NCBI GenBank assembly: GCA_027604505.1
Contig: JADIIX010000053.1
Span: 62,001-126,000 of the forward strand
Direction of reading: 5' to 3'
DNA: 64,000 nt
Source: Gonapodya sp. JEL0774
Lineage: Eukaryota
Shown in pieces: positions 12,926-58,766 of the stretch. The position numbers and the translations under genes were made by a program. The notes beneath the pieces were generated by a model that made no database searches, was not told the DNA's origin, and was given only the letters and a program-made list of their open reading frames with translations. The first letter of the stretch is position 1; every line of letters begins with the position of its first letter.

Positions 12926-15900
12926 ATGGACGGAGAAGGGGGGAATGCAGGTGCCCTGAATCAAGACAAGGACAAGAGGAGCATGGACGGTAGCGCAGAT
13001 TCCGTTCCTGGTTCGCATGGATCGCAGGACAAAGGCGATGCAACTCGCGTCGAACTAATATGGCGATCAGAGACACCGAAACAGATGCTACAGATGCCAC
13101 AGCCACCGCAAACACCACCTAGGGTTGGTCCGGGGGAGAAGGTATCTGCATGCACCGAATCCATGGTTTCTGCGCCGCAACTTCCCACAGCGGGATCGCT
13201 CGACGACCTAATGGAAATGCGAAGACTTGCTCCATTGAATGGAGGAATTGGTGGAACCGGTGGTCTCATGGGCTCATTATCGCCGGGTGGTCAATCTTCG
13301 TCCGGTCAGCATTACAACCAGGTGATGCATATCCAGCCACAAAGCCAACAAATTCAGCATGGGCAGCAGATGCAAAGCTTGAGCAACAGGAACAACCTGA
13401 TGCCGCCGCCGCCACCGCACTCGTCCCCTCTTCGCCCCGTACCACAGTACCAACCAGCCCCTGCAAGCTCACAACACTCTCAACGATATTCCCAAAGCCA
13501 GTACCCTCCTTTGCCCCTCTCTTCATCGCGACCCCCAGTGTATCCGTCCAGTGAGCATCTCGCAAATCCACATACGCACCAAACTCACTTCACTCACCCT
13601 CGCTCGCCTTCGGTGGCGCTCGCATCTACAGGAGACCACATCAATGCTTTAACTCCCTTAGGCGCTGCGGCTGGGCCGTCACAAGTCATGTCGACCACCG
13701 CGTCGACTTCTGCTATCACTCCTTTGTCACCTGGGCGCAGTCCATCTGTGAACACAAGCTCACCGACTTACAGTAATGGTAGTAGCATGCCAGTCTCAAA
13801 TGCTGGGGCAGGTGAAAATGGTGTCACGGAGGGGTTGATTGTAGGACAAGCGCGGATGACATCCCCTACCCTGTATCCCTCACTTGTCCCACCTCGACCA
13901 GTTAACGATGCTGGAGATGGTGGGTCAAGTACTCTGGATTATATTGATGGTGGGCCTAGCGCAGACGGAATGGGGAGAGTGTCATCCCCCGCATCCGGAC
14001 AGAATTTCCCAATCCACCCTCCATCCCCATCTCGGAGTCACGTTTTCGGTCAAACCACTCCATCTTCGGCTTCTGCATCCCCCGCTCCTTACCTTTCTTC
14101 GCAAGTCGACCTTTCAACTCACTTGCTTCAATCTCCCAGCCGGGAATCTGGCCTTGCTAAATCAACGACTGCTCGTTCTCCGTATCCACAGTTCAGTTCT
14201 AACAGCCAACAACAACATCTATCTCAGTCACCCTTGCGTCAATCACTCCAGCATCACCCTCCACTGGCTCAAGCACAATCCCCAGGCAAGGGTTCGCTCC
14301 AACAAGTGCATCACTCGTATCAAAGTCACCAGACCCAGCAGATGCATGCATCACAACAGCAGCCATTTTATGCGCAGCAATATATGCAATCACAGCAAGC
14401 TACACAGCCGCACTTGCCAATGCAGTATGCTCAACAACAGCAGTTCTCCCCGCATTACTCATCACAGCACCACCAACAACAAATGCAGTACGCAAATCAT
14501 CAGCAACAGCAAATGCAATACGCGCAGCAACAGCAAATATTCGCAAATCAGTTCTACTACTCCTCAACTACCTCCGGAGCCACTGGAGCAGGTCCGCTGA
14601 TGGTTCCACCGTCTCAAGCGCTGCCCTTGCCGTTAGGAGTAGGAAGTGGGATCCCTGTGGGCGGCTTAAGTGTTCCACCATGCCCCGCCAGCTCGGCTGG
14701 ACCTGGTGGCCAGGAACAAACGAGGCGACCTTCCATCTCTACCGCAATCGTTCCCCAAGGGATCACCGGTCCATCACTTGTGAGTTTTGCTCACGGGACT
14801 GCCTCCGCCGGTGTTACCTCAGTGTCAGGACCCATGAGCTTTAGTGCTATGAACGGCTCCACGCTCGCCGGTGCAGCGCCTCCTGGATACGGACATGTTA
14901 CTGGCCCATCACGGGGATCCAGCGACGGGACCGGTGGCGCTGTTTCCCACGGGCGGACGGGAAGCACTCATGGGAGCATTCGAGAGGTATGTGAGAGCAA
15001 ACGTGGTATGTTGGCTTAGTGACGTCAATGTTCGGACATTTTTCATGAACTCGTTCTGATTCGCTTGAACTCTTTCAGCCCTCCCCGGCCCAATCCCACC
15101 AAACCCCAAACAATCCGCGCCCTCCCACGCCATCAACCTATGCCCACCACACGGTCACGTATTCACCTTCCCGTCCGAACCCCTCTGCCTTTTCATCTTT
15201 TGGCGCGGTCGTTGCTCCTGTAGTTCCGTCTTCTCCTGGTCGTTACCAAAGTCACTCCAGCGAGCAGTTCGGAGCTGGAGTGGGTCCAATGTCGGGTCTA
15301 GTTCCCTTTTCACATCCTTGGATCGGTTCGGCTACCCAACCAAGTGCTCAACCCGTGACATCCCGATCTGGCAGTGGGCTTGATTTTCTAATGAATGCTG
15401 TGGATTTGGATCGGAGTGGTGGTTACTCGTCAGCACCGGGTGTGCGAAAAACGAGTGATGCACAAGCGGGGCAGGATTTGGAAGTAGGAAGCCAGATGGG
15501 AATGGGAATGGAGGACGTGAGTTTTGAATTTGAACACTCAATCGTGTTTCCTCTTTCATGATTTTTTGTCTTGCTTTTCTACCGCCCAGCAACTGCCTCC
15601 TCCACACTTACCTATCCAACCTTTTACATCGTCTTCCTCAAAGGCGCCAGTTCCCCCATCTGTCCCACTGGCAAAGAAGCCGCGTCGACCAAAGGCCGAC
15701 CTCCTTCTTCTCGACGACGTGCACCGAATGGGAGCTTTCAGCTCTGCTACTTTAGGCTCCCGGCGGAGCGGGAGCGGCGGATGGGGATCCGGAAAGTCGG
15801 GGGGAGATTACAGAATTGAAGATGAAGATTGGGAGCAGCCAGGTACAGTGAGCTCGGGTGGGTATGGTGTAGGAGGACAAGGAGGAGCATCTGGGTATGT

Positions 15901-17692
15901 CAATCCTAGTGGCGTTAAGAAGCAATCTGGGGGAAAGCGGCGACGAGTGGGGGGCGGGTCGTTGTGGGCAGAATCGGGGGAGGACGAAGATGGTTTAGGA
16001 GAAGAGATCTACCACCGCCGCAATATCTCTCATTCCAAGGCAAGGGGTGTAACGCCTACCTACTCTGCTTCGGCGTCTTCAACTTCCTCTGGAACTTGGC
16101 AGGGATTCGCCGGTTCGACGCCGAATGGTGCTCAGATATCTTCCGACGTCGCATGGGTTTACGCTCCTGGATCTTCTCAGCCACCGCCTGCAGCGACGTT
16201 ACCGCAAACAGTAGTGGAGAGTTTGGGAGAGTTCGGAGAAGGCGTTGTTGTCGTTCCGGTTGACGGACAGCAAGGCTGCCCAATCTGTGGGGACGTTGGG
16301 GTGGACGAGTGGGTGGGATGTGACGGTTGCGAAAAATGGTATCACTTTGGGTGAGGATTAGGTTGTTATGACTGATTCGGAATTGTCATTGGAGTACTCA
16401 AATTTCCTGTCCCATCCTCCTCCCAGCTGTGTATCCATGACAGCTCGCCTCGCTTCCGCAGCAGACAAGTGGTACTGCCCAGCTTGTCATATCCGCCCAG
16501 AAGGTGGTCTCGTTACGATCTGGAAAGAGGCTTGCTCGAACCCTCAGTGTCCAGCTCAGCACCCCTCCTTGCGTTCCTTGCCACCACTCGAGGATTCTTC
16601 TGTATCAGGAATGGTGGTCGAGGAGACGAGCAAATACTGTTCGGAGAGATGTGGCATAGATGTAGCGAAGAAGGTGCTCGAGGAGGGGAGGAGAACGCTC
16701 GTAAGGGAGGAGGTGAAACGGAGAGTTGCAAAGGAGAAAGAAGATATAGAAGAGGAGTATTTGAGAAAGATAGAAGAGGCGGGCCTTGTGAGGTCAAAAT
16801 TCGCATGGCTGGACGGGAATGGCGTTCCGCTAGAGAGCGAACACGGGGAGGATACTTTCGGGGAGGAGGAAGATGGGAAATGGACAACAAAATTGGACGA
16901 CAAGGATTTGGCAGAACTCAGGGTAATCAAGAACAAGAAGGACACGTGCAAACGTCTCGGATCCGAGGCAATGGAAAGATTTGTGAGTCCCTGAGCGGTT
17001 CCCAGATTGTTGCAGGTGGTGATGGTTCCAGCTCGATATCGACTCACAATCTACGATCGTAGGAACTTTTCGCTGACTACGTTCTGAAAGTCCATGATCA
17101 CAACGAAAATCTTGTAGCCACCAACTTTTACCCAATGTGCGGTTTCGACCAAACCGTTATTTCCATACTAGATGGCACCGTCAGTTTTGCAGATGGTTCA
17201 TACGAAGCACGATTTGTGAATCCAGATGCAGCAAAGTTTGCCGCTACGGCAGCGGTTACTCTAGTGCCTATTGAGGGAGCACACGGGGAGACGAACGAGG
17301 ACGAGGACCAATCCAATGATGCCAATGGACACGTGGAATCTGCACCTACTCCGCTTTTTCCTGTACCATACACAGCATGTCGGTTCCCGCCGACCCGTTG
17401 CCCACGACACGTTGGTTGGGAGACGCTCAAGCGAGAGGAGCTGGAACTAGTTGTGACCAATCTCGCTGACGAGCTCGAAGACCTCAGAGAGGAGGAGACT
17501 GAGGTGTTGGCAAGGATTGGCAAGCGTGCTTGGGATGTTGGTGAATGCAGCGCTGGTATGAGAGATGGGGATGGGTTGAGAAGAGGGGAAATGCGGGAGA
17601 TAGAGGCTGAAGTGGAGGTTGTGAGAGTCGTTACTGTGAAGATTGAGGAAAGGAAAAGGGGAAAGAAGAAGATCGGAGTGGTCCCAAGATGA
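12926..17692 (+). CDS. SPP1: COMPASS subunit Spp1/Cps40 (CFP1-like PHD protein) with long low-complexity N-terminus
   Basis: PHD finger CPICG..WVGCDGCEKWYHF|CV..KWYCPAC, then SKYCSERCG, MCGFD and CPRHVGWE followed by a coiled coil. The link to the Q/P/S-rich 5' exons is inferred from splice sites. Confidence 0.8.
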
Positions 17693-17824: not shown

Positions 17825-18046
17825 TCAGTTGCTTGCAACCCAATTCATGAATGGTGAGCTCTTGGTTCGGGGTCTCCAAATGCGCACGAAAGAGAAGGTA
17901 CCACTGTTCGCTGTTATTGGTTTACGTATCATGTATCCCACATAGTAAAACGTGATACATATGATAGTTCCAAAGATAACATCTCGCGCAACATTCCAAA
18001 CGTCGCAGTGTAGATACAAGCATATTCCGGGGGGAAGAATGCTCAA
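17825..18046 (-). pseudogene. Hydrophobic membrane-protein-like gene fragment
   Basis: ILPPGICLYLHCDVWNVARDVIFGTIICITFYYVGYMIRK has no ATG and abuts the repeat fragment at 18046. Confidence 0.3.
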
Positions 18047-18220
18047 AACGTCTAGATAGATGCAACCTAGATGCTGATTAAGGGTTTCGGTCTAGGATTC
18101 TATTGCGCCAAAACGTCTAGATTTAGGTGGAATTTGGTAGAGACTGCTATAATAGAGTCATTTTGGTATAGATCCTAACAAACCCTAGTTAGATCTTCCC
18201 AGAAAATCTCCGGCCGTGTA
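18046..18220. mobile_element. Terminal fragment of a putative DNA transposon with TAGAT/CTAG subterminal repeats
   Basis: AAAACGTCTAGAT occurs twice (~18046 and ~18110) with several further (C)TAGAT motifs. The stretch ends CCGGCCGTG-TA, i.e. TA|CACGGCCGG on the minus strand. The other end was not found. Confidence 0.4.
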
Positions 18221-18226
18221 GTCAGC

Positions 18227-18345
18227 CTCAAGCTACATCAGGCCAGACCAACCCTGAACCAGGTCCCGACCTGGAGGTTGAAGGCCCAATGTAGAATCCT
18301 CCCCTTGCGAGGATAAAGACCTGTATGACAGCAGGAATCTCAAGC
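18227..18345 (-). ncRNA. Putative omegaRNA (Fanzor guide RNA) scaffold
   Basis: Minus-strand UCCUC-GCAA-GGGGA hairpin (18313-18300) plus a nested 62-nt hairpin at 18294-18233 with 12+7+6 bp stems. Its mismatches are G-U pairs only on the Fanzor strand. The 5' boundary is uncertain. Confidence 0.65.
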
Positions 18346-18487
18346 AATGAGACAATTTGATGGTGAAAGGAGAGTAGGAACAGTGACACTACAGTTTGGA
18401 TCAAAAGGTTTTCGAACCATCAGATAGTTTACTCTCCACCAAAAGATTTATTGGAATTCGCACTCTCTGTTCCTCCCAAAGGTATAC

Positions 18488-18903
18488 TCACAGATGTGCA
18501 GATGTGTTTAGCGGTGGAAGAGTCCAGGGTGAGTGATAACTGATATCACTGGTTGCATTGGTCTCAAAGAACAGGTAAAGGATGTTTTGGGCAGCATTCC
18601 TGTCTCTATTCCAAGTGATTCCACACTGAGCATTGCCACACAATCTGGAGAGAGGTCAAACAATCAATGTCAATTGCTGATGATGGTATCATATTTGGAG
18701 ACTTTGATCCCAAGATCGCGAGAATACACTCACTTGACTCCCCAGTGTCTTTGCTTTGTGCCTTCTTCCTTGGGGAAAAAGGTCTGGCATCTGGAGCATG
18801 TACGAGAGGTACGAAACTCATCAATGAGCACAACTGTAATGCCACACATGGCGAAGAAGCGCTTCATCATTTTATTTGGTGATGATTTATGGCCTCTGCT
18901 AAC
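18488..18903 (-). pseudogene. Fanzor (eukaryotic TnpB) C-terminal part: RuvC-II, zinc finger and RuvC-III in two exons
   Basis: Exon 18903-18734, intron 18733-18645 (GTGAGT..CTCCAG) and exon 18644-18488 give VSRGHKSSPNKMMKRFFAMCGITVVLIDEFRTSRTCSRC..HWGVKLCGNAQCGITWNRDRNAAQNILYLF. RuvC-I was not found. Confidence 0.85.
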
Positions 18904-19494
18904 CTGTAAACCCAAACATTCAAGCTAAACTCGAATATCTCTGCAAAGGTGCTTCACATTGTAAATCTGTTTGAATTTCAACCTAAACTTGTCCCCCACG
19001 ATCTTTACCTCAGGGTTGATGAACCTTCGGCCGGTTTCCGACGTGGACGCAACAGGTTGGAGTTTTCAGAAGGGTATTCTTCCACTGTTATTATAAGGGG
19101 CATCCATGTATCCGCGCATCATTGTCATTCTCGACGCTCCTCATCATACTGGAAATGGGGTGATGTTGGAGGCGGAGACAGGGAGGGGAACAAGGGCGCG
19201 CCCATGGTTTCCATGGTGGAGGTAGAGCCGTAGAGGAGTTGAAGGAGTGAGGGTGGGTGGGACGGTGGTAACGCTGTCTGGGAGGGGCGACCTTGGAACT
19301 TTTCAATTTTCAATTAAATCATTGGTATCGTTTATCAGCATTGTCTTTGACCTTTGACAGAATAAAGTTGACTGTCAGAATTGTCTTTATCTCAACATTA
19401 GACAGATGAAACACTACTATTCCCAGGTTTTTTAGTTGCAGTTGAGAGACTGCATTTTACACGATCAAAGATCTTGTGACCTGATGTGTATATA

Positions 19495-19968
19495 CGACTC
19501 CGGAAAGACCGAGCATCAGCATGAAGAGCTGCAGCCGGTGGCAATAAAAGTGAGTCGAAGTAGCTCTGGCTCGCGCTACAAAAACCGAAGAACTGTGAAA
19601 ATGAAGTTCGGTAGAGTGTGCGAGCTGTTTGCGGTCACCTGCCAGAGTAGGTGGGGGCAAACCTTCAATATTCGAATGCAAAGGAATACCACCATTGCGG
19701 GACTATCAGCGAAAGATGCTCACTGCGAAGTGATGCGCAGTGAGCAAGCTTTGTCGAGAAACGCACAATAACGGAGTTCAGAATCAAGAAAAGCGAGTAT
19801 AAGAGGATCGGAACACCTTATTTGGACAGGATGTGCGACTCCCGAAAGACCGGAAGCCCAGCATTCAAATCAAGAGCCGGTGGCAATTGATAAAGTCCTC
19901 AGTCTCTCTCGCTCACGTTACAAAAGCCGAAACATCAAGGAGATGGTCTGCGGTAGAGTGTGCGAGCT
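19495..19968 (+). repeat. Two diverged ~130 bp direct repeats about 341 bp apart
   Basis: 19495-19626 and 19836-19968 share CGACTCC.GAAAGACCG, AGCCGGTGGCAAT and CGGTAGAGTGTGCGAGCT. Confidence 0.8.
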
Positions 19969-20275
19969 CCTTTTGTGCAATGGCACACTCCAAAGGATGA
20001 TGGAGCCTTTCAAGGACGAGTGAATGGTCGCATCAACCAATAGAACATCCATGAACGATGCCGAAACTTCAGATCTCAAAAGAGCGCTCCTGGGGAGAGA
20101 ACAGTACGTGTTCTTCATGGGGAAAGGGAAGTTGAAAGGGAAATGGAGAAACTGCCCGCCAGCCACTACACCGGGAACCCCATGCTGGCCGTGCCACCCA
20201 TTTTGTAAAACGCAGACTGATTCGTCTGGCGTCTCAGACGTTTTGTATGCAAATATAATCACCACAGCGTTCGAG

Positions 20276-22462
20276 ATGGCAAACATGATTGCTCATCGAT
20301 CGATTCGGGTCATTGCGGGTCAGGGATCATCCCTGGAGAGAATTGGTTCACCGAGCCTGTTGTGGACTCCGCGCCTGCAGGCGTTTTTAGCCAGGAGCCA
20401 ACGATCGCACTCCGGATCTATTTCCTTCGCGAACTCCCTCAGAGCATCACGTGCTCTCCCTGCCGCAGCTGTTGCACGAGCAGTTGGAACGCGAGATTTC
20501 GTCCAATGGGACTCGCACCAAGTCGCTGTATGGGCATTTCAAGAAACTGACGGTGAGGTTTTAGCGCAAAGTAACCTACTGGGAAATAAGTTCACTGGGG
20601 TGGCGAATTTTCTAGATCCTGCCGTCCTTGAATTCTTTGCTCAGAAGATGAGATTAAACGGAGAGTCTTTGCTCCGACTGGTTGAAAAGGCAAGAACAAA
20701 GGAGGTAAGCAAACTTCTTTTGACGCAGTTTTAATTCAAGGTGAAACTTCCGAGGCAATTTAAGATCGAAGTACAAATGCGCTCGCATGGAATTCAATTC
20801 GCCGATGTTAAGCTTGATATTCTTCGTGATGCATTACGAGAAATAAAGCAGGGACCTAAAGGTAAAGCCCCACTGAGTGCATCGGAAGGTGAGGTATTTA
20901 TGTATTAAGGGTGCTGTATTAGATCTCCTGGAGTGCACTGCTGCGATCCAGAACTGAAGTGGGGCTGGATCTTCTCTCAAATCCAATGTCTTCTCACTCA
21001 CACTTGCACCCGCGTACAGGCCCCCTAACCGTTCAATTCGCATCGTACCAGCACGTCTCAAGCGACCGCAACCAACCCTTCAGCCGCAAATATTCCGGTA
21101 CATATTATTCCATTCGACTGCAGGACCAATCCTCGTTTGTAGAGTTTCTGAGGTCGGAGGGAGCCATCGGAGTCAGTCCTGGCCCTGGTGTAGAGGTGAG
21201 GTTTCGTTCCTGTCACCAGCCCGATATGAGGGCCGATATGTCCATCCATTGCTCCTCATACGGCTTGGGTTTATTCGTTTCATTGTCACAGCCTCTTCTC
21301 ACCCATATCACGGACCTCCGCGACGGGGAGACTTATGTCACCGTTCTCCCTGGTGGTAGCAATGTTGCTGAATGTAGGTCATTAAGAGCATGATTTGCTC
21401 TTCTCAAATGTGATCGGTGGTATCCACAAAACCTCTCATTTCTTAGCGTGGCTCTCTATTCGTTCGTCGTCTCTCAAACTCCTCCTCACCTCTCAACTTT
21501 CTAATCTGCTCAACCTGTCCTCACCTCTTGAGATCTCGACTGCGCGTGACGGTGTCTACATCCCCCGCAAGAATGGAACATCCACACACGATGCGAAACC
21601 GAATGAGGACTATGAATGGGTACCATTGCACGCTATTCTAGAATCGGAAGGAGCAGTGGTGCTTAATTGGCACGTTGGATCAGGAGGGCTTAGCGAGGTA
21701 AAAATTCGGCGATAAATTCACTCTTGTGGGATTGCGTTATGGCTCTTTCTTATCTCGCAGACTACTCTGCCAGATATCCTTGGCCGCCTGAACACGTTAC
21801 GACGATTTGTCACAGAATCAGCACATTACTCCAAATGGCTCGCCGATCGGATGCTGGTAATTGTGCTGAGTGCAGATGAGCTTTCTGTTGGTGTGCGGAG
21901 GCGCCTTATGAAGTGAGCTGTGCTCGAGGCTCATTTTGCGACGGGGCCAAAGTTTGGTTGCTGATGGATTCATCTTGTCGCAAGAACCCCTGACCACCCC
22001 GTGAATTTCATCGCGTACTGGAATAATTTTGATCACCGCTGGCTTTTGGAAGGGAACAGGCTCAAAGACACGGCTGTGGTGGATGTACCGGATACAAGTG
22101 ATGCGTCACCACCTCCCACCGATGCCACCGACGAACCCCACAGGTTGATCGAGGGGAATAGTGAGACAAATGGCGATGGCTTAGCTAATGAGGACACGCT
22201 TGTGACAATGAACGAAGGGGGTAGTTCTGCCAGTTCTGCGCCGGAGTCCAGCAATGCGGAAACCCCAGTTCGATCTCTTCTCCGCGATGCAGCTGATCTT
22301 ATTCGCAAACCCTCCATGGCAGATTTCTCTGGTCCAGTGCCTCGTACTTCCGCTTACGACAAGCGTGATGAACAACGGGATTCCGCATCCGCCGAAGAGG
22401 TCGAAGGATGGGTGCGATGGAAACAAGATTCAGGGAGGGAAGGGGGAAGTAATATACCTTAG
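20276..22462 (+). CDS. Multi-exon protein with SAM-like domain and Arg/Ser/Ala-rich N-terminus
   Basis: WDSHQVAVWA..RLNGESLLRL..MRSHGIQF..LRDALREIK resembles a SAM fold. GT-AG introns start near 20704, 20862, 21196, 21698 and 21912. The gene model is approximate. Confidence 0.5.
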
Positions 22463-22529
22463 ATAGATTTTCGTTACAAACAAAAACACGCACAATAATA
22501 TTCGCGTCGCACACGGCAGAAACAAAGGA

Positions 22530-23925
22530 TTGCAGGAGCAACTCTACCAAGAGTTGCATTCCCCAAGGGCGATATTGTCACCTTTCATGATCCAAATAAT
22601 GATGGTCTTCTTCGTGGCATACCAGAGCTGCTGTGTATTCGAGATATCTACAGAAAATGTTGATGGCGCACTCAATTCGTTCGCTAGTTTGCATCCACTC
22701 TATGCTGACTTGGAGCTGTCCTCTCCACTATTTTTTAAATCTTTGACTGATCCGACTTTGGCCTCAAAAATCGTGCCCCAAGCTTCGGCGGCGACTATTC
22801 CTCCTGCAACGCAAACAGCAAATGTAACTCCAAGCGCTGAAGCAATCCGCTGCGGTCCGACGGCTTGTGCAGAAAGCGTGTGGAACATCCGACTCATAAG
22901 AGGTTTTTTGAAGACTCCAGAGTTTGCATCAAAACTCACCTTTCTGGATGACCGGGATCCGGTCCGCAACGGACAGAATTGCGATGAACGCGATACGAAT
23001 TATAGGTATGTTGATGAGGAAAATTGACGTCTTCGTCACTGTTTGATGAAGTGGTGAACGAAGTGCAACAATTCAGTGGTGAAAATGATTCGGTCATATA
23101 CACTCACAGTAATACTGATGAAGTGCAATGCTAGCTCTCTTCTTCCGCCCAGTGGGCGCAGCTACAAGCGCAAGATAGCCCATCAGTGCGTTGTATACTG
23201 GATAAGAGAATGTCACTGTAGAAAGGACTATCTGGACAAACATAACATTTGCAGGAGAATGGTTGGTGGACTGCAACAGATTAGAATGGCCCCATTACAC
23301 GCTCTTAGCACCCACTTTCCACCGAGACGCCACCGCCTGAGATGTAAATCCCAGCATGAATCCGGTCACGCTGGCCGGGATGAGCGAAAGAAGTATGAAC
23401 CGGCCATTCCACCGATGCAGATTAATGTAGTGCTTCCGGATGGTTGAGCTAAACTACCGACAGAATTGGTGATTCATGCCTTGTTTGGGTTAGATTACAT
23501 TTCTGTACGATGAAACGCACTTGAACTGCCGACAGGAGCGCCCACGGAAGCTGTGTCGCATTATGCAGAAGGAACACGAACTTTGTCTTTCCGTACCATT
23601 CATCGGAGTAGAGAAATTTACCAAACTCGTGAAGGCAATAATAGCAATTGGCCATAGGGGATGGAATACAGATAATGCATTCAATGAAGATAGTGGTTGG
23701 CCCTTGTGCAAAACTCACAGCGTACGCATCTTCCTTTGCAACGTTGGGCACAATTTCTGAGAGTCCAGATACACCTTGGTACATCTTTTCCATTTCCTGG
23801 GGATCATTCCGAGCAAAGGTCGTGAGATTTGACCCGAGTGCTGATGGTGTTGTCGTGAGTTGATAGGTTAGCCACCCGAGGCCATTGAGTCCCACGGCGA
23901 CGATTGGAGAGAAAATATCAGGCAT
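22530..23925. pseudogene. Broken coding-like fragments on both strands (partly hydrophobic)
   Basis: ORFs 22530-23027 (+) and 23449-23925 (-) look protein-like, but neighbouring frames contain stops and no complete gene could be assembled. Confidence 0.25.
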
Positions 23926-25473
23926 TCTTGCAAGCTAGGTGCGAATTCCGGGTGGCTTGATCAGCGTGGGGTTTGAGAATCGGCTCCTCGCAGCCGCTGC
24001 TACGTGTTTCCAAATCCACCTGGACACGTCGCCAAGGGGAAATGGAAAGTACGGGACGAGACGAAAATTCCCTTGCTATCGGGCTGTGCGATGTGTCGCT
24101 TCTCTCCGTGTTGGGTGGCGTTGAAACGATACGCGACACTGCGTCCATCAAATCTTCGGCACAGAAGGCGCATTTCAAACTTCACGCTTTTACTAGAGAG
24201 AGTAAACGTGGAGAAAAGGTGTCATTTGTAGGCTTACGTCCTCTCGTCCCTATGTACATTACAATCACCAACAAATATCGAAGACTAGAGGGGTTCTGAC
24301 CCCACCTTCACGTGAGCTGAAATGTCCTACTGTAATGAATTCTTGTGTGAAGTGAGCGTCACATGATTGCCCTTGCAGCTCGGGCCGAGACGGCACCACA
24401 GAGGATGTCAACGGACCCTGGAACTCTCGGGATCTTAGTTAGAATATGTTTATCGTGTAAGTCGGGGGCACGGGCTGATAAGAGGCTGTCACCGTACTCC
24501 GTGGTCTGACAAAGGGGAAGACTCTCGTCAAACTAATTTTTGAAGAGGCCGAAGTTGTGCCTATCTTCGGGGTGATTCGAGCAGCTAGGGTGCAAACAAT
24601 CTCTCCAGCCCTGGAGTTTACAAAAGGTGTGATGATGGCGACGCTGGACGACAGATATCAAAGTCCAGAGTAGCGCCACTAACTGATGAGATCATAAGAT
24701 GATAAGAGCTTTGTTGTTCCATTGCATTGACATCTGTATATATAGAATTATTTGGCGTGTACCAGCCGCTGCTCGGAGATTTCCGTCATCTCTGCCAAGC
24801 ACCGACTTGGGCCCAAGGCCGCAAGATCTGGAGCGCGGAAGGAACAGACTTATTGACACGAGCCTGCAACTAAACGCAAAGAACACTCCATCCACACCGG
24901 CTTAGCTAAGCATTGTGTGTCTTTCTGATTTTGGAACGATATGAAGGTTTGCAAAAGGTAATAATATAGACCCGGTTACCATTGCTGGACAACGACGTCC
25001 CTAACAAGCACACAACTTTCATATAGCTGGGACAATGCTGGCATGTGCGTTAATTGGTTTCTGCACCACAAGTCAATGAACTGGATGCTTTACTCTTCTC
25101 ATTGAAGCATCCTCTCCTTCACCAAACGCAAACATTCCCTTCTCAGAAGTCCAAACGCGCTGCCCTGTAGCTACATACAGTCTCAGTGTATTCTGTCCCT
25201 TCTCACCCTGTTTGTGCCCCTGGGCGGGTTGAGAAAATAATGTTCCCTGCGCCTTGTGCGGCCAATCAAGTCCTGATCCCTGTGGCCCATGACCTCCGAG
25301 ATCATAGATTGGCGCTTCAGGAATCAGGAATCACCGATATATAACCTGCCAACTCTTCCCCCAAACCATCAAGCATTTGCTTTCGAGCTGTCGTCTGTTC
25401 TCAAAGCACGTCGAACAACTTGCATCACTGTCCGCATTCTTTCCACCTCGTGTGAACGTCAAACATCTCTGCC

Positions 25474-25752
25474 ATGCCATCCATTGCGTCAATCCTCGAA
25501 ACCGTTCTCCCCACTTCCGCATCGTCAGCTACCCACTCTCGTTCTTCCTCCACCTCTTCTATTGGCTCTGTTTCCAGCACATCAGCTGGCGCTGACGCTC
25601 AACGCGCTGCCGACTTTAATGCGGCTGTCCACCTCGGCCTCTCAGACCTGGCCTCCTCCCAGCATCACCGAGCTATCCACGGTACAGGAGGAAGGATGGG
25701 CAGGAGGATGAGCCGCATCTCGAGGCCCGGTGTTGCCATGGCTGCCAAGTAA
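25474..25752 (+). CDS. Small Ser-rich hypothetical protein (92 aa)
   Basis: ATG in GCCATG context after a pyrimidine-rich leader, with strong C/T third-position codon bias. Confidence 0.5.
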   Translation: MPSIASILETVLPTSASSATHSRSSSTSSIGSVSSTSAGADAQRAADFNAAVHLGLSDLASSQHHRAIHGTGGRMGRRMSRISRPGVAMAAK

Positions 25753-26362
25753 GGGATCTGGTGGCGTTGGGAGACGGAGTGGTGTCGGACATCGTTTAGT
25801 GTCGTTGAGGGAGAGCTGGCTGGATCCTCGACGGAGCTGAAGGTGACACGAACACTTTGGTTTGAACTTACGTATGGGCTTCTCGGTAGTGTGGGCGCAG
25901 TGCGCACTCCATCCACCCAGTACGATGTGAAGCAGCGCTTCTAATGAATTCTTTTAAGCTTTATTGGCAGCGAGTAAACTTCAGTCAAAACCGTGTATGT
26001 ACTTCTTATTTTGCAAAACAAATGTGACAATATTTCTGTTACCCGAAACCACGTTCACCTGGAACAATGACTGTCTTGTCCTCAGAACGTTTATTTGGGC
26101 ATGCCATTTATTTATAATTAGTAAATGGCGATCCCATGTCAATAATGCTGGTTTGTTCTATTCTGTTTTGCAATGCACTAGAGTAATTGATTCACTTGCA
26201 ACAATGACGTGTGTTCGCATTTGCATATCTTGAGAGGCAGCAGCACTTGCATGGACTGACGAGAATCATCACTGCTTCAGTGGAGGTGGTCAAGTTTTGA
26301 ACGCACACGAGCATGTTGATGAGCCACGACCGCAGCAAAGCCGAGCCGACCACCGAAATCTA

Positions 26363-32497: not shown

Positions 32498-32562
32498 AGC
32501 ATTAATAAATTACATTGACATGCGAAACCTCTGTAAGAATTTATGGAGAGACCGAAAAGCAG
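32498..32562 (+). repeat. 65 bp dispersed repeat, copy 1
   Basis: 60/65 identical to 58702-58766. Confidence 0.9.
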
Positions 32563-37486: not shown

Positions 37487-40400
37487 CTAAATTGGGCAAC
37501 CCCCACATCTTACTCCATCCACACATCCAATGCACGTCAGAACTTTCACGCCCAATGCCTTCATGGCGGCAACCAGGAGAGACGTAACTCCCTCTCCGAG
37601 CACGAGTCCCGAGGCAACCACAATACCGTCTCCGCCTCGCCAAGATTTTGGTCGTTTGGTACGCCAAAGGTATGCAACGATCCCCCCGGCAACACGCGGA
37701 AGTACGAAATTTGGGGTTATGTACATTCCAATCGCAAAGCCCTTCATTAGAGTGAGCGTACAGATAGAACTGAATGTAGTGGCACGGGATGTCAACAAAA
37801 TGAGTCTCTACTTACCACGCCACTTGGCAGTAACCTCGCAAAGAATATCCTCCAGCTGTTCCAGTCTAGTTTTTCCAGAATACTCAATGCTCGGTCCCAG
37901 AAGGAATCACCTGACTGTCCTCTCGTTGTACTGAGGGGCACAGAAAGTAGCAACTCCAATATTGGAAGGAATGCACCAAACACTCCGCCAATAATACACC
38001 AAGGTACAACGCTCTCGGGCAGCTTCCCGCCATTCACAATTCGCGCCATATCCAGCCATATTGCTGCTGTGGGGGCGCCCAATTCTGGCCCTGGCACTTG
38101 ATACACCTTCGTGTACAGAAGGAACGCACAAACCGTAAGGGGTACTGACGCAACCGATCCGATGAGTTGACCGATAAACTGAGCATAAGGTGAGGCAGAG
38201 AGAAGATGACCTGTTTTCAAGTCCTGAAGTAGGTCCCCGGCTTGTTGAGCGCCAGCTATTTCGCGAAGAAGTTTAACTTGTTGAGGTGGTAGGTACCAGG
38301 CGTAATACAGGATACTCACCTTCTGCAATTGCCCCAGCAACGAGATTAGCCACAATATTGCCTGGTGCAATCGCGGCGAAAACCAACTGGGAAACTTTGC
38401 CGATTCTAACCATCAGAGAGAGTGTGGGAGACTCTGCACTTAACTTTCACGCATCAAAACTCGACCATTCTCCAACTTACCCACTCACGGGATTAACATC
38501 AATCTCGCCTAATGTCCTCACAGCGACGACGGCACATAGGCACCCCACTATGACTGCAACCCCCACCTTCCACCAAGAAACACCAAACATCGGGCCAAGG
38601 ATTGCCGCGCAAAGCACAGTACTCAATGCGAGGCCTCCATATGCGACTAGAGGTGGCACAAGGTGATTACGAGGAGCCGGATCGCGGACGGGAGGACTTC
38701 GTTGAATTATTGCGCGAACGGTCGACAATACAAAGAGATTGAAGGAGGTGAGAGACTCGGCGAGCATTAAGGAAAGCGATACCCATAGGATCCATCTATG
38801 TATCAATAGTTGATTGGTGGCGAAAGCGTTTGAGAGGAAGACGGTCTCACGAACCCTTGAGCACCTTCCTTCCAATCGAATACTCCTTTGCACCAACCCT
38901 GACTCTCAGCGTAAGGTCCAAGGAATCCCCATCCAAAGAGAGCACCAAACAGCATAGAAATCGTGGTGTGTGCCTTCAGGGAACGAAATGGTGGGAAATA
39001 TGGACACAATACACTCTAATCCAGACCTCACACCCATAATCATCCCTTGACCAACATAGCTCAGGGCTTTCAGAGGTAAAAGGAGAGGAAAGCAATCCCA
39101 AAATTTTGAGATACCCGTGTAGCGGTCGCTGATGCTAGCTTCCCCACTCACAAGGTGTCACCCACCATCCCCATTTCGTCGCCATTGAGATCCCAATCCA
39201 TGACATTACCGGTGCATTGTAGAGCACCGGAACGAAATAAGAAGCTATCGTATAGGAGGAGGAGGCGACGAAGGAGTACAGAAGTGGAGATCGCGAAGGC
39301 CCGACAACATTGGGTCCCTCGGAAATGGGGGTGATGGCAGAGGTAGCAGGTTCCTCGGAGATCGTTGAGTGGAGGAGCTTAATTAGCTGGAAATTGACGG
39401 AGGAAGTCACACAATTCGCCGCAGGAACCGCTCAAGCAATCTTAACACACCACTGCAGTTGCCGTTCCACTTGGAAATCGCAGCTTTTCCCTCAGAATTG
39501 TCATACTTCTCATCCCTACAGCGAAGAACACACCGAAAAATGCCTATGTGGGGTAAAAGACAATACGTCAGAGGGACGCAATCCGGACAATACTTTGCAA
39601 CAAAAGTACCAGTGATGAAGTCCACGCAATCATGGCTCCGGGCGTCATTTGGACTGGTCCACCTTCTTCGGGTTCAACCTGAGTTAGAGCGATCACGACC
39701 CCGACAAATCCACCGGCTAGTGGCTGTCAATGGTCAATGTGGACGGTTGATATGTACCAAAATCACCTCCTTCAGTGACACAGTCAAAGATACTACCATT
39801 GTGCCAGTTGCGACCGCTACGGTCTGAACAAGTACGTTTTCCTGCGGTGACCACAAGGAGAATCTGTGCAAGATAATGTAGCCAAGGAGAGCCGATGGCA
39901 AAGACGCCATCTTGGGATGAAGCGATTCCGTCAGAGTTACGATCTGGCATCACAGTCTTTATCACAGCTGCAGTGCCCGCAGTTCCCACTCACCGTAACC
40001 CAACCTGTTTGCAGTCCAAAATACATGTTGGAGAAGACCAAACTTGTACCAATAGCCAACTGGTAAACAGAATGTCACATCTCAGAGATGACTGAGTCGT
40101 ATTAAGTGCCACGATCCATCAACTCACCCCTGCGATAACTGCGCGAGCCGAAACCTGTGACTGCACAGACATGTGCTCAAGATCCCTTTGAATGAGAACC
40201 TCGTCGTCCAGCCCAGCATCAGTAGTTCCTCCTAGTCGCCTTCTCACACGCTTCCTATCCGTTGTTCCTTGGATCAGTGGCCCCTCTTCCGAATCTCTCC
40301 GTTGAACCAGCCCGTCGTCCTCATTATCATTCGCCGTCACAAGAACATCATCGGCGCCCCCTGGCAAATCCGAGTACGCTGAATGAACAGTTGAATGGAA

Positions 40401-47685: not shown

Positions 47686-50600
47686 ATGGCCTTCCAACCC
47701 GGTGACATTAGCGCAGAGTATGCGAAGGTGACTGATGCATCTCTTTGGGGTTCGTTGTGTCTTCCTCTCTGACCGGTCATCACAAACATTCTGTTCAGAG
47801 CGGACGAGCAGGATGCAAAGGATGCAAATCGAATATCGCTATGGGTGCCGTAAGAATTGGGAGACACACTCAGAGTATGGCATGTGAGTCGTTCTTTTTT
47901 TTGTGGGTGCGTGTGGTTCTTGGGGATTGTGAAATGAGACGGGACGAAGGTGTATGGACCAAAGGAGATGGACAAACGACGAAAAGAACCCTCTCCATTG
48001 CAATGTTTACCGAGCAAAAAAGCCGATGCTCACAGTCTTGTTTTTACATCAAAACCGAAACCAAACCCAACCTGTTCCCTCCCGGCCGAATCTTCACTTC
48101 CCCTTTTCCGCTTTATAAAGTTGACGGTATCATGACTGCCTGGTTCCATCCTTCATGCTTTTCGAAGAAAGCGTTTGGCAAGAACACCAAATTGTCTGTA
48201 AGTCTCAAACAACAGTTATGACGTGGTCCCAATCACCTCTCAAGGACCGTTCCAGGAAATTCTTGGTGTCCCTTCTTTGCGTTGGGAAGATCAACAGAGT
48301 CTTGGTAAAATTTTCGGTGACGGGGGTGGTGGTGGCGGTGGTGCCCGGAAGCCGACTGGTGGTTCCAGTGGCTCAGGGCGTGCACAAGACGTGGAAGAAT
48401 CAAACTCGGGTGAGTTGTTGCTGCTCCAATTTGGGAATGCGATGAGTGCGAAGAGCATTCTGACCACGCAAATGCAGCCCTTAACATTGCTTATGCTCCC
48501 ACTTCTCGATCAACCTGTCACGGATGCGAGAGCAAAATCGAAAAGGGGGAACTAAGGATGGCGTTTAAAGAAAGCAAAGGAGACGATGCACGGCCGTGGT
48601 TGGAAGTGGACAGGTGGTGTAAGTTTTGCTATTGCGTTTGGCTTTCCTTGTTGGATGCGATGGCGAACCGAGAGGGACCTTGAAACCCACGGCCCACTCA
48701 CATCTCTCAAACTTTTTTTTTTTTGTGTAATTCACCAATCCCACTTCGCGCGCTGCACTGCTCTGATTTCGTTAGATCATCCTCCTTGTTTCTACACACA
48801 CGCCCTGGTCGCAACACCTTCACCGTGTCCAGTATCTGACGTGAAGGATGTCAAGATATTCAGCGGTTGGAAGAGCATCGGTGGGTTTTAAGGGATGTTG
48901 GTGGTGTTGGGGGTCACTCGCAAGGGACCGAATTGGTGATTCACTTCATTGCGTTCTCGCCAGCCAAACCTCATCTCGACTATGCGACCGCGTGTTTGAC
49001 TGGCACCCCGCCAGCTGGTCCTGTTCCATCAAATTTGTCTGGGGACAATGTAGGACCGAAGAAGAAAAAGGCAAAGAAATCAATGAGAGGGAGTGCCGAG
49101 GAGATGGACGACGAAGAGGCTGAGGTGGGGACTGAGGAGGAGTACGCACTTCCGGAACGCAAAACCAAAGCAAGGGGCAGAGCCGCCCTGGAGGAAGGTG
49201 AGAGGAAGAGGAAGCGGGGAAAACCGCAGACGAACGAGGTTCAAGAAGATCAAGGGGATGTCAGTATGGACGAGACATATGTAGCGAGACCAACGAGAAG
49301 AGCAAAAAACGCCGACAGCCGAATGAAACGAGACGTGGTAAAGAAGAGAGACGGGGATGAGGAAGAAGAGTCCAGAACGGAGACTAAAAGCGATCCCCAG
49401 CCTCCTCGTCGGCGAAAGAGGGGAGTGACCAAGGACGGGCATTCGACGGTTAGTTATTCGACGGTTAGTTTGCCGAGCGATGAAGCGCCACATGCGGCTT
49501 CAAAGGACGATGTGCAATTGCCAGGACGGCGTAAGAAGGCGAAACGGGTTGAGGAGGATTTGGACGCCAAGGACAACATCGAGATGGAAGACGACGAAGC
49601 TGACAAACCTAAGAGGGGAAGAGGAGGGCCCAGACTCAAGAAGGAGACTCTTCACCACGAGTTGGGTGCGGAAGACATGAAAGAGTCCAAGAAGAGGAAG
49701 CTGAAAGAGCCTTCGAATGGCAAAGGCAAACTCAAAGCCGAAGAAGATGCAGAGGTAGCGAAAGAAGAGCAACAGGACCAAGGGCTTATGGATCCGGCAC
49801 GCATACAAGCAGAGGCGCTGTGGCAGGTGAAAGTGAGTTCTCGAAAGGTATGAGGCCCACCCGAAACAGTGATTCCATGCACTTCAACTGGTAGGACAAG
49901 CTCTCCTCCTTCTCACTCGGTGGCCGAGGCACTGTCTTACGCTGCCTGAATGCGCTGGGGTTTTCGATGCCCACACCGACGGAAACTGCTGCCAAAACCC
50001 TATTCGCAGATGTCCTCACGTTCGGGCTTTCTGGGCCATGCCCTGAGTGCCGTTCATCTTTCCTTGCTCCCAACGAAAAGGGTACAGGATACCGTTGTCC
50101 CAAGATCCACGATTGGGGCGCGTGCCCCTTCGAGACGACGCACCCGGTGTTTGATAAGAAGGGGACAGAGACGAGAATTGGGAGCGATTTGACGGCAATT
50201 TTGGGCGAAGAATTAGTGGAGAAGATTCTGGAGGTGGCGAGGGGAGTAGGCGAAGTGACGAGGGTTTTGCAATCAGAGGTACGTCTTTGGCGCCTGTCTG
50301 AGTCCATCAAGGATTTACATTTTGCGCCATCCTACAGCCCAAGCGTGTCAAGACAGTCGCTTCAAGTACCTCCATTTCTTCACCCACTGCTTTCGTCCCC
50401 CGGTTTGGTGCCACCACTGGTGAACCTTTCCGTGGTATGACATTTGTGTTGGCAGGTGGTTTTTCCCGTCCACATGGCGAAATCGCGTCAAGGATAAAAG
50501 TCGCAGGGGGGATCGTCGACACAAACGTGACGGAAGGAACGACTTTGGTTGTGAGCTCCAGAGTAGAGTGCAATAAGGATGAATCGGCGACAACTGCCAA

Positions 50601-52956
50601 GATTTTGAGGACAAAAGAACTGGGGATAGAGGTGGTTGGAGAGGTGGGTGTTTGTGAGGAATCTAGCTCTTGCAGCGTGGGCTTGGCTTGGCCATCATCT
50701 GAGCTCTGGTGCATGCACTTGAACGATTTATTTCTACAGAATTTCATTGATGAGTGTATTGGCAAGAAGCAATTGTTGGATTGGCGGATCGATGGATGGC
50801 GGATCTGGGGTGGGGACGAAGATTCGGTTAGAAAACGCAAGGAGAGGAAAGAAAAGGAGGTTCGTGATAACTACTGATAATCGCTTTCAGAAGTGACTCA
50901 TGAGTGAATACTTCGCAGGAGTTTCGTCCCAAAAAATTACAAGCGATGACAGTCAAGAACTCGACTGCGGTCGACCCAAAAAGTGCTTATACTGCGACGC
51001 ATCATGTATACCGAGTGAGGAATATCTAGGATGCAATGTCGAGTTCTTGATTGACTCTTTCCACCGTTCAATGTTCGAACATTAGGACAAGCAAAACGTC
51101 CCATGGACTGTACAAATGGTTCGTGTCGACGCCGCTACGGGTCGGAATAGCTACTACGTACTTCAAATTCTCGAGAGTGACGGAGGAGGAAGAGGTTACG
51201 TATTTCTCAAGAGCTGGGGTCGGGTTGGAACAAACATAGGGCAGATCGAAGAGGACACTTGTGACTTGGAGTGGGCAAAGTCAACTTTTGCAGTCAACTT
51301 TGCCGAGAAAAGTGGAAACAAGTGGTTGTTGAAACCTTATGAGGCCATTGCAGTGAGTATTTAATTCAAGGTTTGTGTCCCAGTTCACCTGCGTTGTTAA
51401 TTTTTCACTGCAGAATCGGTACACCGTGGTCGATGTGGACTATGGTGGCGAGAAAGCGGAGACTGTGTCGACGAAGATCACCTCTGATTTGGTGGATTCC
51501 TCGAGTCTCGCGAAGCCTGTTGCAGAGCTCGTTGCCTTGCTTTTCGATATGGAGAGGATGAAACAGACGATGCTCTCATTCGAAATTGACCTTAGCAAGA
51601 TGCCGCTAGGCAAGTTCCGCTGAATACGTGCGGTTGGAGGCCCGACAACCTCGATAACCGTGAATTTCATGATTGCAGGAAAACTGTCCAAAGCAGCCAT
51701 AAGTCGCGCGTATACAATTCTCGCCGAAGCTCAGGAGCTAGTCAACCAACGTACACATAACTCCGAAACCCCGGGACTCAAATCCGGTTTTGCACGTGTT
51801 TCCAACGTTTTCTACTCAACAATCCCACATGATTTCGGAAGGAACTCACCACCACTTCTAGATGACGAGGATCTGATTCAGAGCAAATTGAGCATGCTTG
51901 ACACCCTTCGGGATATAGAAGTTTTCAACTCGATCATTGCTGAAGAAACTGACGAGAAGAAGGCAGAGAACGTTGTTGATCAGCACTACAAGAAACTAAA
52001 GTGTTCAATTGAGGTCGTCGATAACGATTCGGTTTGTTCTTCATGTTTTGAAGAAAGGACGTACTTGCAAAAAATAATCTTCTGGGAACTCCAGGTTGAG
52101 TTTTCGCGAATCAAGAAACAACTTGACAGCACGCACGCTCCGACGCATTCGCAATACTCATTGGAGATCGAGCATGTGTTTAGAGTTTCGAGGGATCAAG
52201 ATGAAGAAAGGTTTTCATCATGGAAGAACAATAAGAACAGGAGTGAGCGTTTGCACAACACCGAGACGCGACATGACGAGTCTAATTGCGCTCCTTAGTG
52301 CTGTTATGGCATGGCTCCAGGCTTTCGAACTGGGTGGGAATCCTCAGCCAAGGTTTACGTATCGCCCCACCGGAAGCTCCTGTTACCGGCTACATGTTCG
52401 GGAAAGCGTTGTATTTTGCGGACATGGTATCTAAGTCTGCGAACGTGAGTTGGACCTGGGTTCTGCCTTTATTTTATTCACTATCGTTACTGCGGTTTCA
52501 TTGGCCCGAAGTACTGCTTTGCAACGCCCACAAATCCTTATGGTTTGCTGACATTGTGTGAAGTGGCGCTGGGTGATATGTAAGTCCGTTTCGTTTCTTA
52601 AAGCAGACGAGTCTCCCACTAATACTTGCATGCGGTGCAGGTACGAGTTGACTGCGGCGCAGATGATTACAAAACTGCCCCCTGGGAAGGAGAGCACAAA
52701 AGGTTGTGGCAAAACCGGTCCGTCTTCTTTCGACTTGGAAGATGGATTGCGCCGCCCTTTAGGCCCTCCCACTGGCCAAAACATACCGGTGAGTAGTGTT
52801 CGACTGAATCCCTGCAGTAAACTGAATTGCTTTTGGTAGGGGACGAAAAGAACGGACTTACTTTACAATGAATATATGGTATATTCTGAAAGCCAACAAC
52901 GTATGCGGTACCTCGTCAAAGTCAAGTTTCATTTCGGTCGTTCGGGACGGTTTTAG
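47686..52956 (+). CDS. PARP1: Poly(ADP-ribose) polymerase 1 (Zn1-Zn2-PADR1/Zn3-BRCT-WGR-regulatory-catalytic)
   Basis: [97 protein letters not shown] and YNEYMVY. Confidence 0.93.
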
Positions 52957-58701: not shown

Positions 58702-58766
58702 AGCATTAATAAATTACATTTACATGCGAAACCTCTGTAAGAATTCAGGGAGAGACCGATAAACAG
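58702..58766 (+). repeat. 65 bp dispersed repeat, copy 2
   Basis: 60/65 identical to 32498-32562. Confidence 0.9.

What the first reader, a model, noticed from the sequence alone, without database searches (positions are those of the whole stretch)
18488..18903. Hidden intron-split Fanzor (eukaryotic TnpB) nuclease C-terminus
Seen in sequence: on the minus strand, removing an 89-nt GTGAGT..CCAG intron (18733-18645) joins two frames into VSRGHKSSPNKMMKRFFAMCGITVVLIDEFRTSRTCSRC..HWGVKLCGNAQCGITWNRDRNAAQNI. Established: DE.xTSxxCxxC, a second Cys pair and WNRDxNAAxNI are the RuvC-II, zinc finger and RuvC-III signature of TnpB/Fanzor OMEGA nucleases. Inference: this genome hosts a spliceosomal-intron-containing Fanzor family. 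This copy lacks RuvC-I, but a full-length relative elsewhere could be a new RNA-guided endonuclease.
Basis: partly seen in the sequence, partly recalled or inferred. Interest (0 to 1): 0.9.

Follow-up and report, generated by a model that had tools for sequence, protein, structure and literature searches.

The report
Truncated Fanzor1 gene with hairpin tail
This is the tail end of a known kind of RNA-guided DNA-cutting gene (Fanzor1), split by a predicted intron and missing the parts it would need to cut, followed by a strong hairpin that is likely what remains of its guide RNA; it is a mostly ordinary transposon relic.

Summary
Removing the 89-nt GT-AG stretch 18733-18645 gives 108 codons carrying the Fanzor catalytic Glu, a C4 zinc finger and the RuvC-III Asp; this splice scores best of 42 candidates. 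The closest relatives are full-length Fanzor1 proteins. The copy covers 86 of 647 profile positions. RuvC-I, WED and REC blocks are absent from the window, and the upstream gap is too short to hold them, so it is a 5'-truncated copy, inferred to be dead. Intron-bearing and 5'-truncated Fanzors are published, and two Gonapodya Fanzor1 genes are already tabulated. It is likely the omega-RNA scaffold or element end. An 8-bp repeat flanks the unit (weak support). No genome was held and no sequencing run was listed, so expression and full-length copies are untested. This scan found similar dead intron-bearing Fanzor1 tails before in other genomes. Verdict: real, known kind, low interest.

The parts
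18734..18903 (-). Exon: end of the lid region, catalytic Glu motif (DEFRTS; Glu codon 18819-18817) and first Cys pair of the TNB zinc finger
   Evidence: PF07282 E 3.2e-6; best PDB hits PpFz1 9cf0 (E 0.0058) and, weakly, SpuFz1 8gkh (E 0.28); profile positions from 528
18645..18733 (-). Predicted 89-nt spliceosomal intron, phase 2, GTGAGT...CTCTCCAG
   Evidence: Best of 42 candidate splices; branch-like motifs; not present in 152 of 152 related loci that showed both flanking motifs
18488..18644 (-). Exon: second Cys pair, RuvC-III motif WNRD (Asp codon 18604-18602), C-terminal tail and TGA
   Evidence: PF07282 positions 45-60, E 1.8e-3; block score 33, top of the window
18904..18919 (-). Likely 3' remnant of a preceding intron (ends TACAG); homology starts right after it
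   Evidence: Alignments start at residue 1-3 of the exon; acceptor resembles those of the neighbour gene, no YTRAY branch motif in the 45 nt upstream. Inferred.
18920..18927 (-). 5' copy of an 8-bp direct repeat (TAGCTTGA), candidate target-site duplication
   Evidence: reached by 8 of 300 and 26 of 300 control pairs with narrow windows chosen after the fact, by 31 of 100 and 78 of 100 with wide ones. Weak.
18228..18235 (-). 3' copy of the 8-bp direct repeat, overlapping the last 3 nt of the long hairpin
18296..18314 (-). Short hairpin (6 bp plus one possible inner pair), candidate stem-loop 1 of an omega-RNA scaffold
   Evidence: Predicted fold; not significant when folded without the long hairpin (z -0.52)
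18233..18294 (-). Long bulged hairpin, 25 pairs of which 4 are G-U on the Fanzor sense strand; candidate stem-loop 2 or element-end hairpin
   Evidence: z -4.58, 0 of 200 shuffles; pair counts; rank 1 of 18,266 70-nt windows of both strands after composition correction, joint third by raw energy
18321..18491 (-). Possible further intron in the tail: GTGAGT donor overlapping the stop codon, acceptors at 18389 or 18321 (the latter 6 nt before the short hairpin)
   Evidence: Sequence only; no homology or read support

Best explanation
This is the 3' end of a Fanzor1 gene that keeps two of the three catalytic residues and the zinc finger but lacks RuvC-I and the WED and REC domains, so it is predicted to be unable to bind a guide or cut DNA; the hairpins behind it are likely the guide-RNA scaffold and right end of the parent transposon. 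Shown: the motifs, the missing blocks, the short upstream gap, the unusually stable predicted fold. Inferred: the parent element gained spliceosomal introns in this host lineage; a copy was made from, or cut back towards, its 3' end and breaks off inside the intron before the first remaining exon, leaving about 16 nt of it; the 8-bp repeat may mark the insertion. In an intact parent the protein would bind the RNA from this tail and use the 14-15 nt beyond the element end as guide, as shown for SpuFz1 (PMC10432273 section 7).
For: Profile of 36 relatives matches SpuFz1 (E 8.6e-50), PpFz1 (1.7e-44) and GtFz1 (1.2e-43) far better than the mimivirus L79 protein (3.8e-15) or TnpB/Cas12 chains; the model of relative P0007 (pLDDT 88.5) finds Fanzor1 structures first (TM 0.58-0.62). 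The window's Glu and Asp fall on chain positions 935 and 1000 of 8gkh, 158 and 223 residues after the RuvC-I Asp at 777, the spacing of D383/E541/D606. Six-frame search with a 22-sequence profile finds only the two exons (E 9e-12, 1e-10; next 1.3). The three control blocks rank first in the window with scores 22, 42, 33, whereas RuvC-I, WRRLRW, WED, REC and the strand before the exon score at most 4.3 in 18904-26000 against member medians of 23-45. The neighbour gene P0125 starts at 20276 on the other strand, leaving 1,372 nt for at least 1,581 nt of missing coding sequence. Structured tails are usual in relatives: minimum z at or below -3 in 25 of 33 tails against 7 of 33 coding controls; L083 shows the same short-then-long hairpin order.
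Against: The remaining frame, splice signals and catalytic residues are all intact, which a long-dead copy would not be expected to keep; this needs a recent truncation or some selection. The hairpin starts 173 nt after the stop, whereas the SpuFz1 RNA lies in the 80 nt after it. The hairpin is also significant on the opposite strand (z -4.1 to -4.5), so the fold does not prove an RNA. No Rfam family reaches threshold and no DNA similarity to relatives' tails was found, so there is no covariation support. A five-residue block was too short to discriminate. The tree places the fragment on a long branch with no starred group.
Confidence: 0.75

Rival explanations
1. The copy is a working guide-RNA donor: the protein part is dead, but the tail is still transcribed and loads onto intact Fanzor1 made elsewhere in the genome, as proposed for ghost loci.
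For: Hairpin pairing is unbroken over 25 pairs with 4 G-U pairs on the sense strand; sense-strand fold is 9 kcal/mol more stable than the antisense. Ghost omega-RNAs work with SpuFz1 (PMC10432273 passages); stand-alone fRNA copies exist in Chlamydomonas (PMC10530073 passage).
Against: No promoter or transcript is shown; no intact partner is on record. An intact fold is equally explained by a recent truncation.
Confidence: 0.12
2. The long hairpin is only the single-stranded DNA end signal of a Helitron2- or other HUH-type carrier, or an unrelated element, and the guide scaffold lies elsewhere or is lost.
For: Significant on both strands. 5'-truncated, 3'-intact Fanzor1 copies with variable target-site duplications are described for Helitron2-type CRe-1 to 3 (PMC3627910 passages and section 9). 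A 16-of-20 inverted repeat 18312-18331 / 19372-19391 lies just before the short hairpin.
Against: The inverted repeat is not convincing: 2 of 57 controls reach it at length 20, but 39-57 of 57 reach the best match at lengths 12, 16 and 24, its gapped score (26) is below the control mean (31), and the hairpin at the far arm has z -0.25. No transposase gene was recognised near the locus among the ORFs scanned. In Fanzor1 elements the end sequences are predicted to be part of the RNA scaffold (PMC10711439 passage), so the two roles need not exclude each other.
Confidence: 0.15
3. The gene is intact, with its front part in many short, diverged exons that the searches missed.
For: Acceptor-like TACAG directly before the exon and a donor-like GAG|GTAAAG 105 nt upstream; some tblastn alignments to distant relatives run on to 19065 at 25-28% identity, across a stop and with long gaps.
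Against: Five upstream blocks are all absent while three control blocks are found; the sequence before the candidate donor does not match the conserved strand; there is not enough room before the neighbour gene.
Confidence: 0.04
4. The truncation is an assembly artefact that collapsed a repeated full-length element.
For: Young repeated elements are prone to mis-assembly (general knowledge); the frame is intact.
Against: The window has no N; flanking genes look continuous; a repeat-like 8-mer brackets the unit.
Confidence: 0.04

Closest known systems
Fanzor1 of Spizellomyces punctatus (SpuFz1, PDB 8gkh) and Parasitella parasitica (PpFz1, PDB 9cf0)
   Same: Catalytic Glu and RuvC-III Asp, C4 zinc finger; their RNAs have a 7-bp first stem and one second stem before the guide (PMC11423790 section 5), like the predicted short-plus-long hairpin here.
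   Different: This copy has only the last 108 residues, has a predicted intron (SPu-1 is a single ORF), shows no significant terminal inverted repeats, and its hairpins start 173 nt after the stop.
Uncharacterised Fanzor1 proteins P0004, P0007, P0001, P0008, P0006 and the group with Amoeboaphelidium P0010
   Same: 41-49% identity over about 80-100 residues, shared S-R-G-H lid motif and W-x-V/L-K-x-C motif.
   Different: They are continuous at the site of the intron; most are about 690-730 aa; the tree grouping with them is weak (87/79).
CRe-1, -2, -3 Fanzor1 elements of Chlamydomonas (Helitron2-type; PMC3627910)
   Same: Multi-exon Fanzor1, frequent 5' truncation with intact 3' end, variable target-site duplications.
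   Different: Their carrier and ends are established from hundreds of copies; here the carrier is unknown and the ends rest on one copy.
Ghost Spu-1 and partial Fz loci (PMC10432273)
   Same: Guide-RNA region without a working nuclease gene; 23 of 42 Fz-gene loci in S. punctatus are partial.
   Different: Ghosts lack the ORF and keep both 30-nt inverted repeats; this copy keeps two exons and no convincing left end.
Gonapodya prolifera Fz1 entries KXS17374.1 and KXS09892.1 (supplementary table of PMC10432273)
   Same: Same genus as the source name of the neighbour protein P0125; KXS17374.1 spans 3,489 nt for 845 aa, which implies introns (my inference).
   Different: Their C-terminal sequences were cut in the view I had, so whether they belong to this family could not be checked.

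Membership tests
Fanzor1 nuclease | RuvC-I catalytic Asp (first D of the D-X(125,275)-[TS][TS]-xx-C4-X(5,50)-RD motif) | tested here: not met
   Best upstream score -2.2, best in window 10.0, member median 38.3; no profile hit
Fanzor1 nuclease | Rearranged RuvC-II Glu just before the zinc finger | tested here: met
   DEFRTS aligns with the SpuFz1 and PpFz1 Glu motif
Fanzor1 nuclease | C4 zinc finger followed by RD (RuvC-III) | tested here: met
   Four Cys and WNRD after splicing; PF07282 on both exons
Fanzor1 nuclease | WED domain with TDG motif and enlarged REC domain | tested here: not met
   Blocks absent from the window; present in relatives (alignment); feature from PMC10711439 passage
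Fanzor1 nuclease | Closer to Fanzor1 than to Fanzor2 or TnpB | tested here: met
   Relatives' profile and fold; exon 1 alone has PpFz1 as best PDB hit
Fanzor1 nuclease | Structured omega-RNA transcribed from the 3' end of the element | tested here: inconclusive
   Strong predicted fold at the expected side and strand; no covariation or expression data
Fanzor1 nuclease | RNA-guided DNA cleavage | not testable with these tools
   Needs biochemistry; not expected without RuvC-I
Helitron2-type carrier | Asymmetric terminal inverted repeats with 5' and 3' hairpins | tested here: inconclusive
   16-of-20 inverted repeat near background, 5' hairpin z -0.25
Ghost Spu-1-type element | No Fanzor ORF, both terminal inverted repeats kept | tested here: not met
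   Two coding exons remain; no significant inverted repeat

The most novel reading that the evidence does not exclude
A headless Fanzor1 copy acts as a guide-RNA cassette for intact nucleases elsewhere in the genome, and its guide scaffold is brought next to the gene end, or released, by splicing of a spliceosomal intron whose donor overlaps the stop codon (18491) and whose acceptor lies 6 nt before the first hairpin (18321): omega-RNA maturation coupled to the spliceosome.
Probability: 0.06. Interest if true: 0.65.

Novelty: new member of a known kind. Interest (0 to 1): 0.24.

Why it matters
As it stands the locus is a relic. Its use is as a pointer: the parent family is divergent (47% best identity in the tree alignment), appears to have gained introns in this lineage, and this copy gives a concrete candidate for its guide scaffold and right end, which is what one needs to test any full-length copy as a programmable nuclease. 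It would matter more if the tail proved to be an expressed guide whose maturation depends on splicing; I found no paper on that in one search (listing only).

Tried and rejected
Whole-genome search: no genome held. Sequencing runs: none was listed, so no reads were laid. ESM Atlas: no answer for exon 1 or P0002. Word search with exon 1 among proteins of 101-2000 aa: 0 of 61 candidates passed. Exon 1 patterns in viral contigs: 0 of 17 stretches confirmed. Exon 2 against PDB sequences: no hit. Non-RuvC zinc finger (zf-TFIIIC): weaker than PF07282 and does not explain exon 2; rejected. In-frame read-through upstream of 18903: has a stop and does not match the conserved strand; rejected. Terminal inverted repeat 18312-18331 / 19372-19391: near background. 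First folds of the tail, ending at 18290 or above, showed nothing (z 0.3 to -0.6); the signal appeared only when the scan went further 3'. Donor sites at the stop codon as a family trait: within 45 nt of the stop in only 6 of 75 metagenome and 1 of 78 viral loci, none of them among the closest; not supported. Rfam: one chance-level hit (group II intron D1-D4, E 4.3), none at threshold in the window. DNA similarity of the region to 160 fetched loci: best E 0.13. Exact short motifs in the PMC10432273 table hit only unrelated rows, and its cells are cut.

Full report
Observation. On the minus strand, 18903-18734 and 18644-18488 join into 108 codons once the 89 nt from GTGAGT to CTCTCCAG are removed. 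Both exons hit the TnpB/Cas12f zinc-finger profiles separately and in order (PF07282 positions 7-41 and 45-60; NF040570 positions 325-368 and 371-388). Of 42 candidates (39 GT/GC-AG joins and three controls) the proposed splice scores highest against a profile of 36 relatives: 102 bits, next 83, unspliced 44. It restores a conserved W-x-V-K-x-C spacing without a gap. The intron is therefore well supported by sequence, but no reads were available: no run was listed.

Family. A search of 1.84 billion representatives with exon 1 gave four hits at 48-58% identity, one from the chytrid Borealophlyctis. A profile of these found 225 longer proteins, of which 120 were listed. The closest to the spliced peptide share 41-49% identity. 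A profile of 36 of them matches SpuFz1, PpFz1 and GtFz1 at E 1e-43 to 1e-49, the mimivirus L79 protein at 4e-15, and other TnpB/Cas12-type chains at 1e-8 or weaker. A model of relative P0007 (pLDDT 88.5) finds Fanzor1 structures first. The window's Glu and Asp align with 8gkh positions whose spacing equals that of the catalytic E541 and D606 (residue numbers from PMC11423790 passages). A tree of 55 C-terminal segments (a subset of the 124 proteins then held) puts the fragment on a long branch beside P0001 and a group containing Amoeboaphelidium P0010, without strong support.

What is missing. A 656-position profile hits only the two exons in 2,824 six-frame fragments of the window. Three control blocks inside the exons rank first in the window. 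Five blocks from upstream (RuvC-I, WRRLRW, the strand before the exon, WED, REC) score at most 4.3 in the 7 kb upstream, against member medians of 23-45; a sixth, five-residue block could not discriminate. The next gene, P0125, matches the window on the plus strand from 20276 to 22459. That leaves 1,372 nt for 527 missing profile positions, which need 1,581 nt before any intron. Because a defining feature was tested and not met, I file this as a fragment of a Fanzor1 gene, not as a Fanzor1 nuclease.

Where it breaks. Homology begins directly after TACAG at 18904, which resembles acceptors of the neighbour gene but has no YTRAY branch motif upstream. I infer that the copy breaks off inside an earlier intron. 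In 152 of 152 fetched loci that showed both the Glu and the RD motif, the two lie in one open frame; those loci were picked by tblastn score, which favours unbroken genes, so this suggests but does not prove that the intron was gained in this lineage.

A sliding scan found one outlier among 28 local windows: 18320-18231, z -4.75, while the lowest of 119 background windows was -3.21. With 200 shuffles it gives z -3.9 (sense) and -4.5 (antisense), at -43.1 and -34.0 kcal/mol. It is a 6-bp hairpin followed by a 25-pair bulged hairpin with four G-U pairs on the sense strand. It ranks first of 18,266 windows on both strands of the 64 kb after correction for composition, and joint third by raw energy. 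Relatives usually have such tails: 25 of 33 against 7 of 33 coding controls, with only 12 shuffles per window and loci that are not independent. L083 shows the same short-then-long order. SpuFz1 and PpFz1 RNAs have a 7-bp first stem and one further stem before the guide (PMC11423790 section 5). I read the hairpins as the likely omega-RNA scaffold and right end. Against this: the distance from the stop is 173 nt, the fold is significant on both strands, and there is no covariation or expression evidence.

Ends. An 8-bp direct repeat sits 16 nt before the first exon and at the end of the long hairpin. Controls reach this in 8 of 300 to 78 of 100 cases depending on window width, and the narrow windows were chosen after seeing it; 8-mer matches between the flanks overall are at chance level (20 seen, 20 expected). 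It fits the 5'-truncated copies with variable duplications described for CRe-1 to 3 (PMC3627910 passages) but is weak. A 20-nt inverted repeat was near background. A second perfect donor overlaps the stop codon, with possible acceptors at 18389 and 18321; it is not a trait of the fetched relatives and is untested.

Prior knowledge. Seen as passages or named sections: PMC3627910 (five- and ten-exon Fanzor1 with EST support; 5' truncation), PMC10530073 (intron gain, rearranged Glu, stand-alone fRNA copies), PMC10432273 (partial and ghost loci), PMC11423790, PMC10711439, PMC10288648. The source name of P0125 is a Gonapodya protein. No main text in the library holds both 'Fanzor' and 'Gonapodya', and the two supplements of PMC10530073 do not name the genus, but supplementary file 3 of PMC10432273 lists two G. 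prolifera Fz1, one with about 950 nt more span than its length needs. Their sequences were cut in my view, and file 2 of that paper could not be read, so identity with this family is open. Earlier notes of this scan describe similar dead intron-bearing Fanzor1 tails in other genomes; none matched this DNA. They are unchecked and are not used as support.

Verdict. A real, probably recent, 5'-truncated Fanzor1 copy with a predicted intron and a candidate guide scaffold. New member of a known kind; interest 0.24.

Noticed in passing
window 19495-19626 and 19836-19968: A 137-nt direct repeat at 71.5% identity, 342 nt apart, in the gap between the Fanzor fragment and the next gene; each copy lies in a short plus-strand open frame with similar translation and no Pfam hit.
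   Followed up: partly
window 32498-32562 and 58702-58766: A 65-nt dispersed repeat at 92% identity, 26 kb apart; no Rfam or tRNA hit.
   Followed up: partly
window 20276-22459 (+): Multi-exon gene equal to P0125 (571 aa), no Pfam domain and no other homologue at E 0.01 among 931 candidates; its N-terminal part looks SAM-like to me from recall, untested.
   Followed up: partly
window 18030-18200: AT-rich stretch with repeated TCTAGA/CTAG words and a 14-nt exact direct repeat (18044, 18109), just beyond the hairpins; possibly the end of another element.
   Followed up: no
L083:613-790, L085:1173-1384: Close metagenomic relatives have a purine-rich run right after the stop, a pyrimidine-rich run, then strongly folded hairpins (z -4.4 and -3.9); candidate omega-RNAs of an untested Fanzor1 group.
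   Followed up: partly
L081:2356-4489: Apparently complete, intronless 710-codon frame of the closest group with a hairpin beginning at the stop codon; a ready candidate for a biochemical test.
   Followed up: no
window 15521-17692, 49895-52298, 53254-53892, 37795-38412: Ordinary eukaryotic genes: PHD plus CpG-binding-type protein next to the fragment, a PARP (PADR1, BRCT, regulatory and catalytic domains), a SET-domain protein and an OPT transporter.
   Followed up: no
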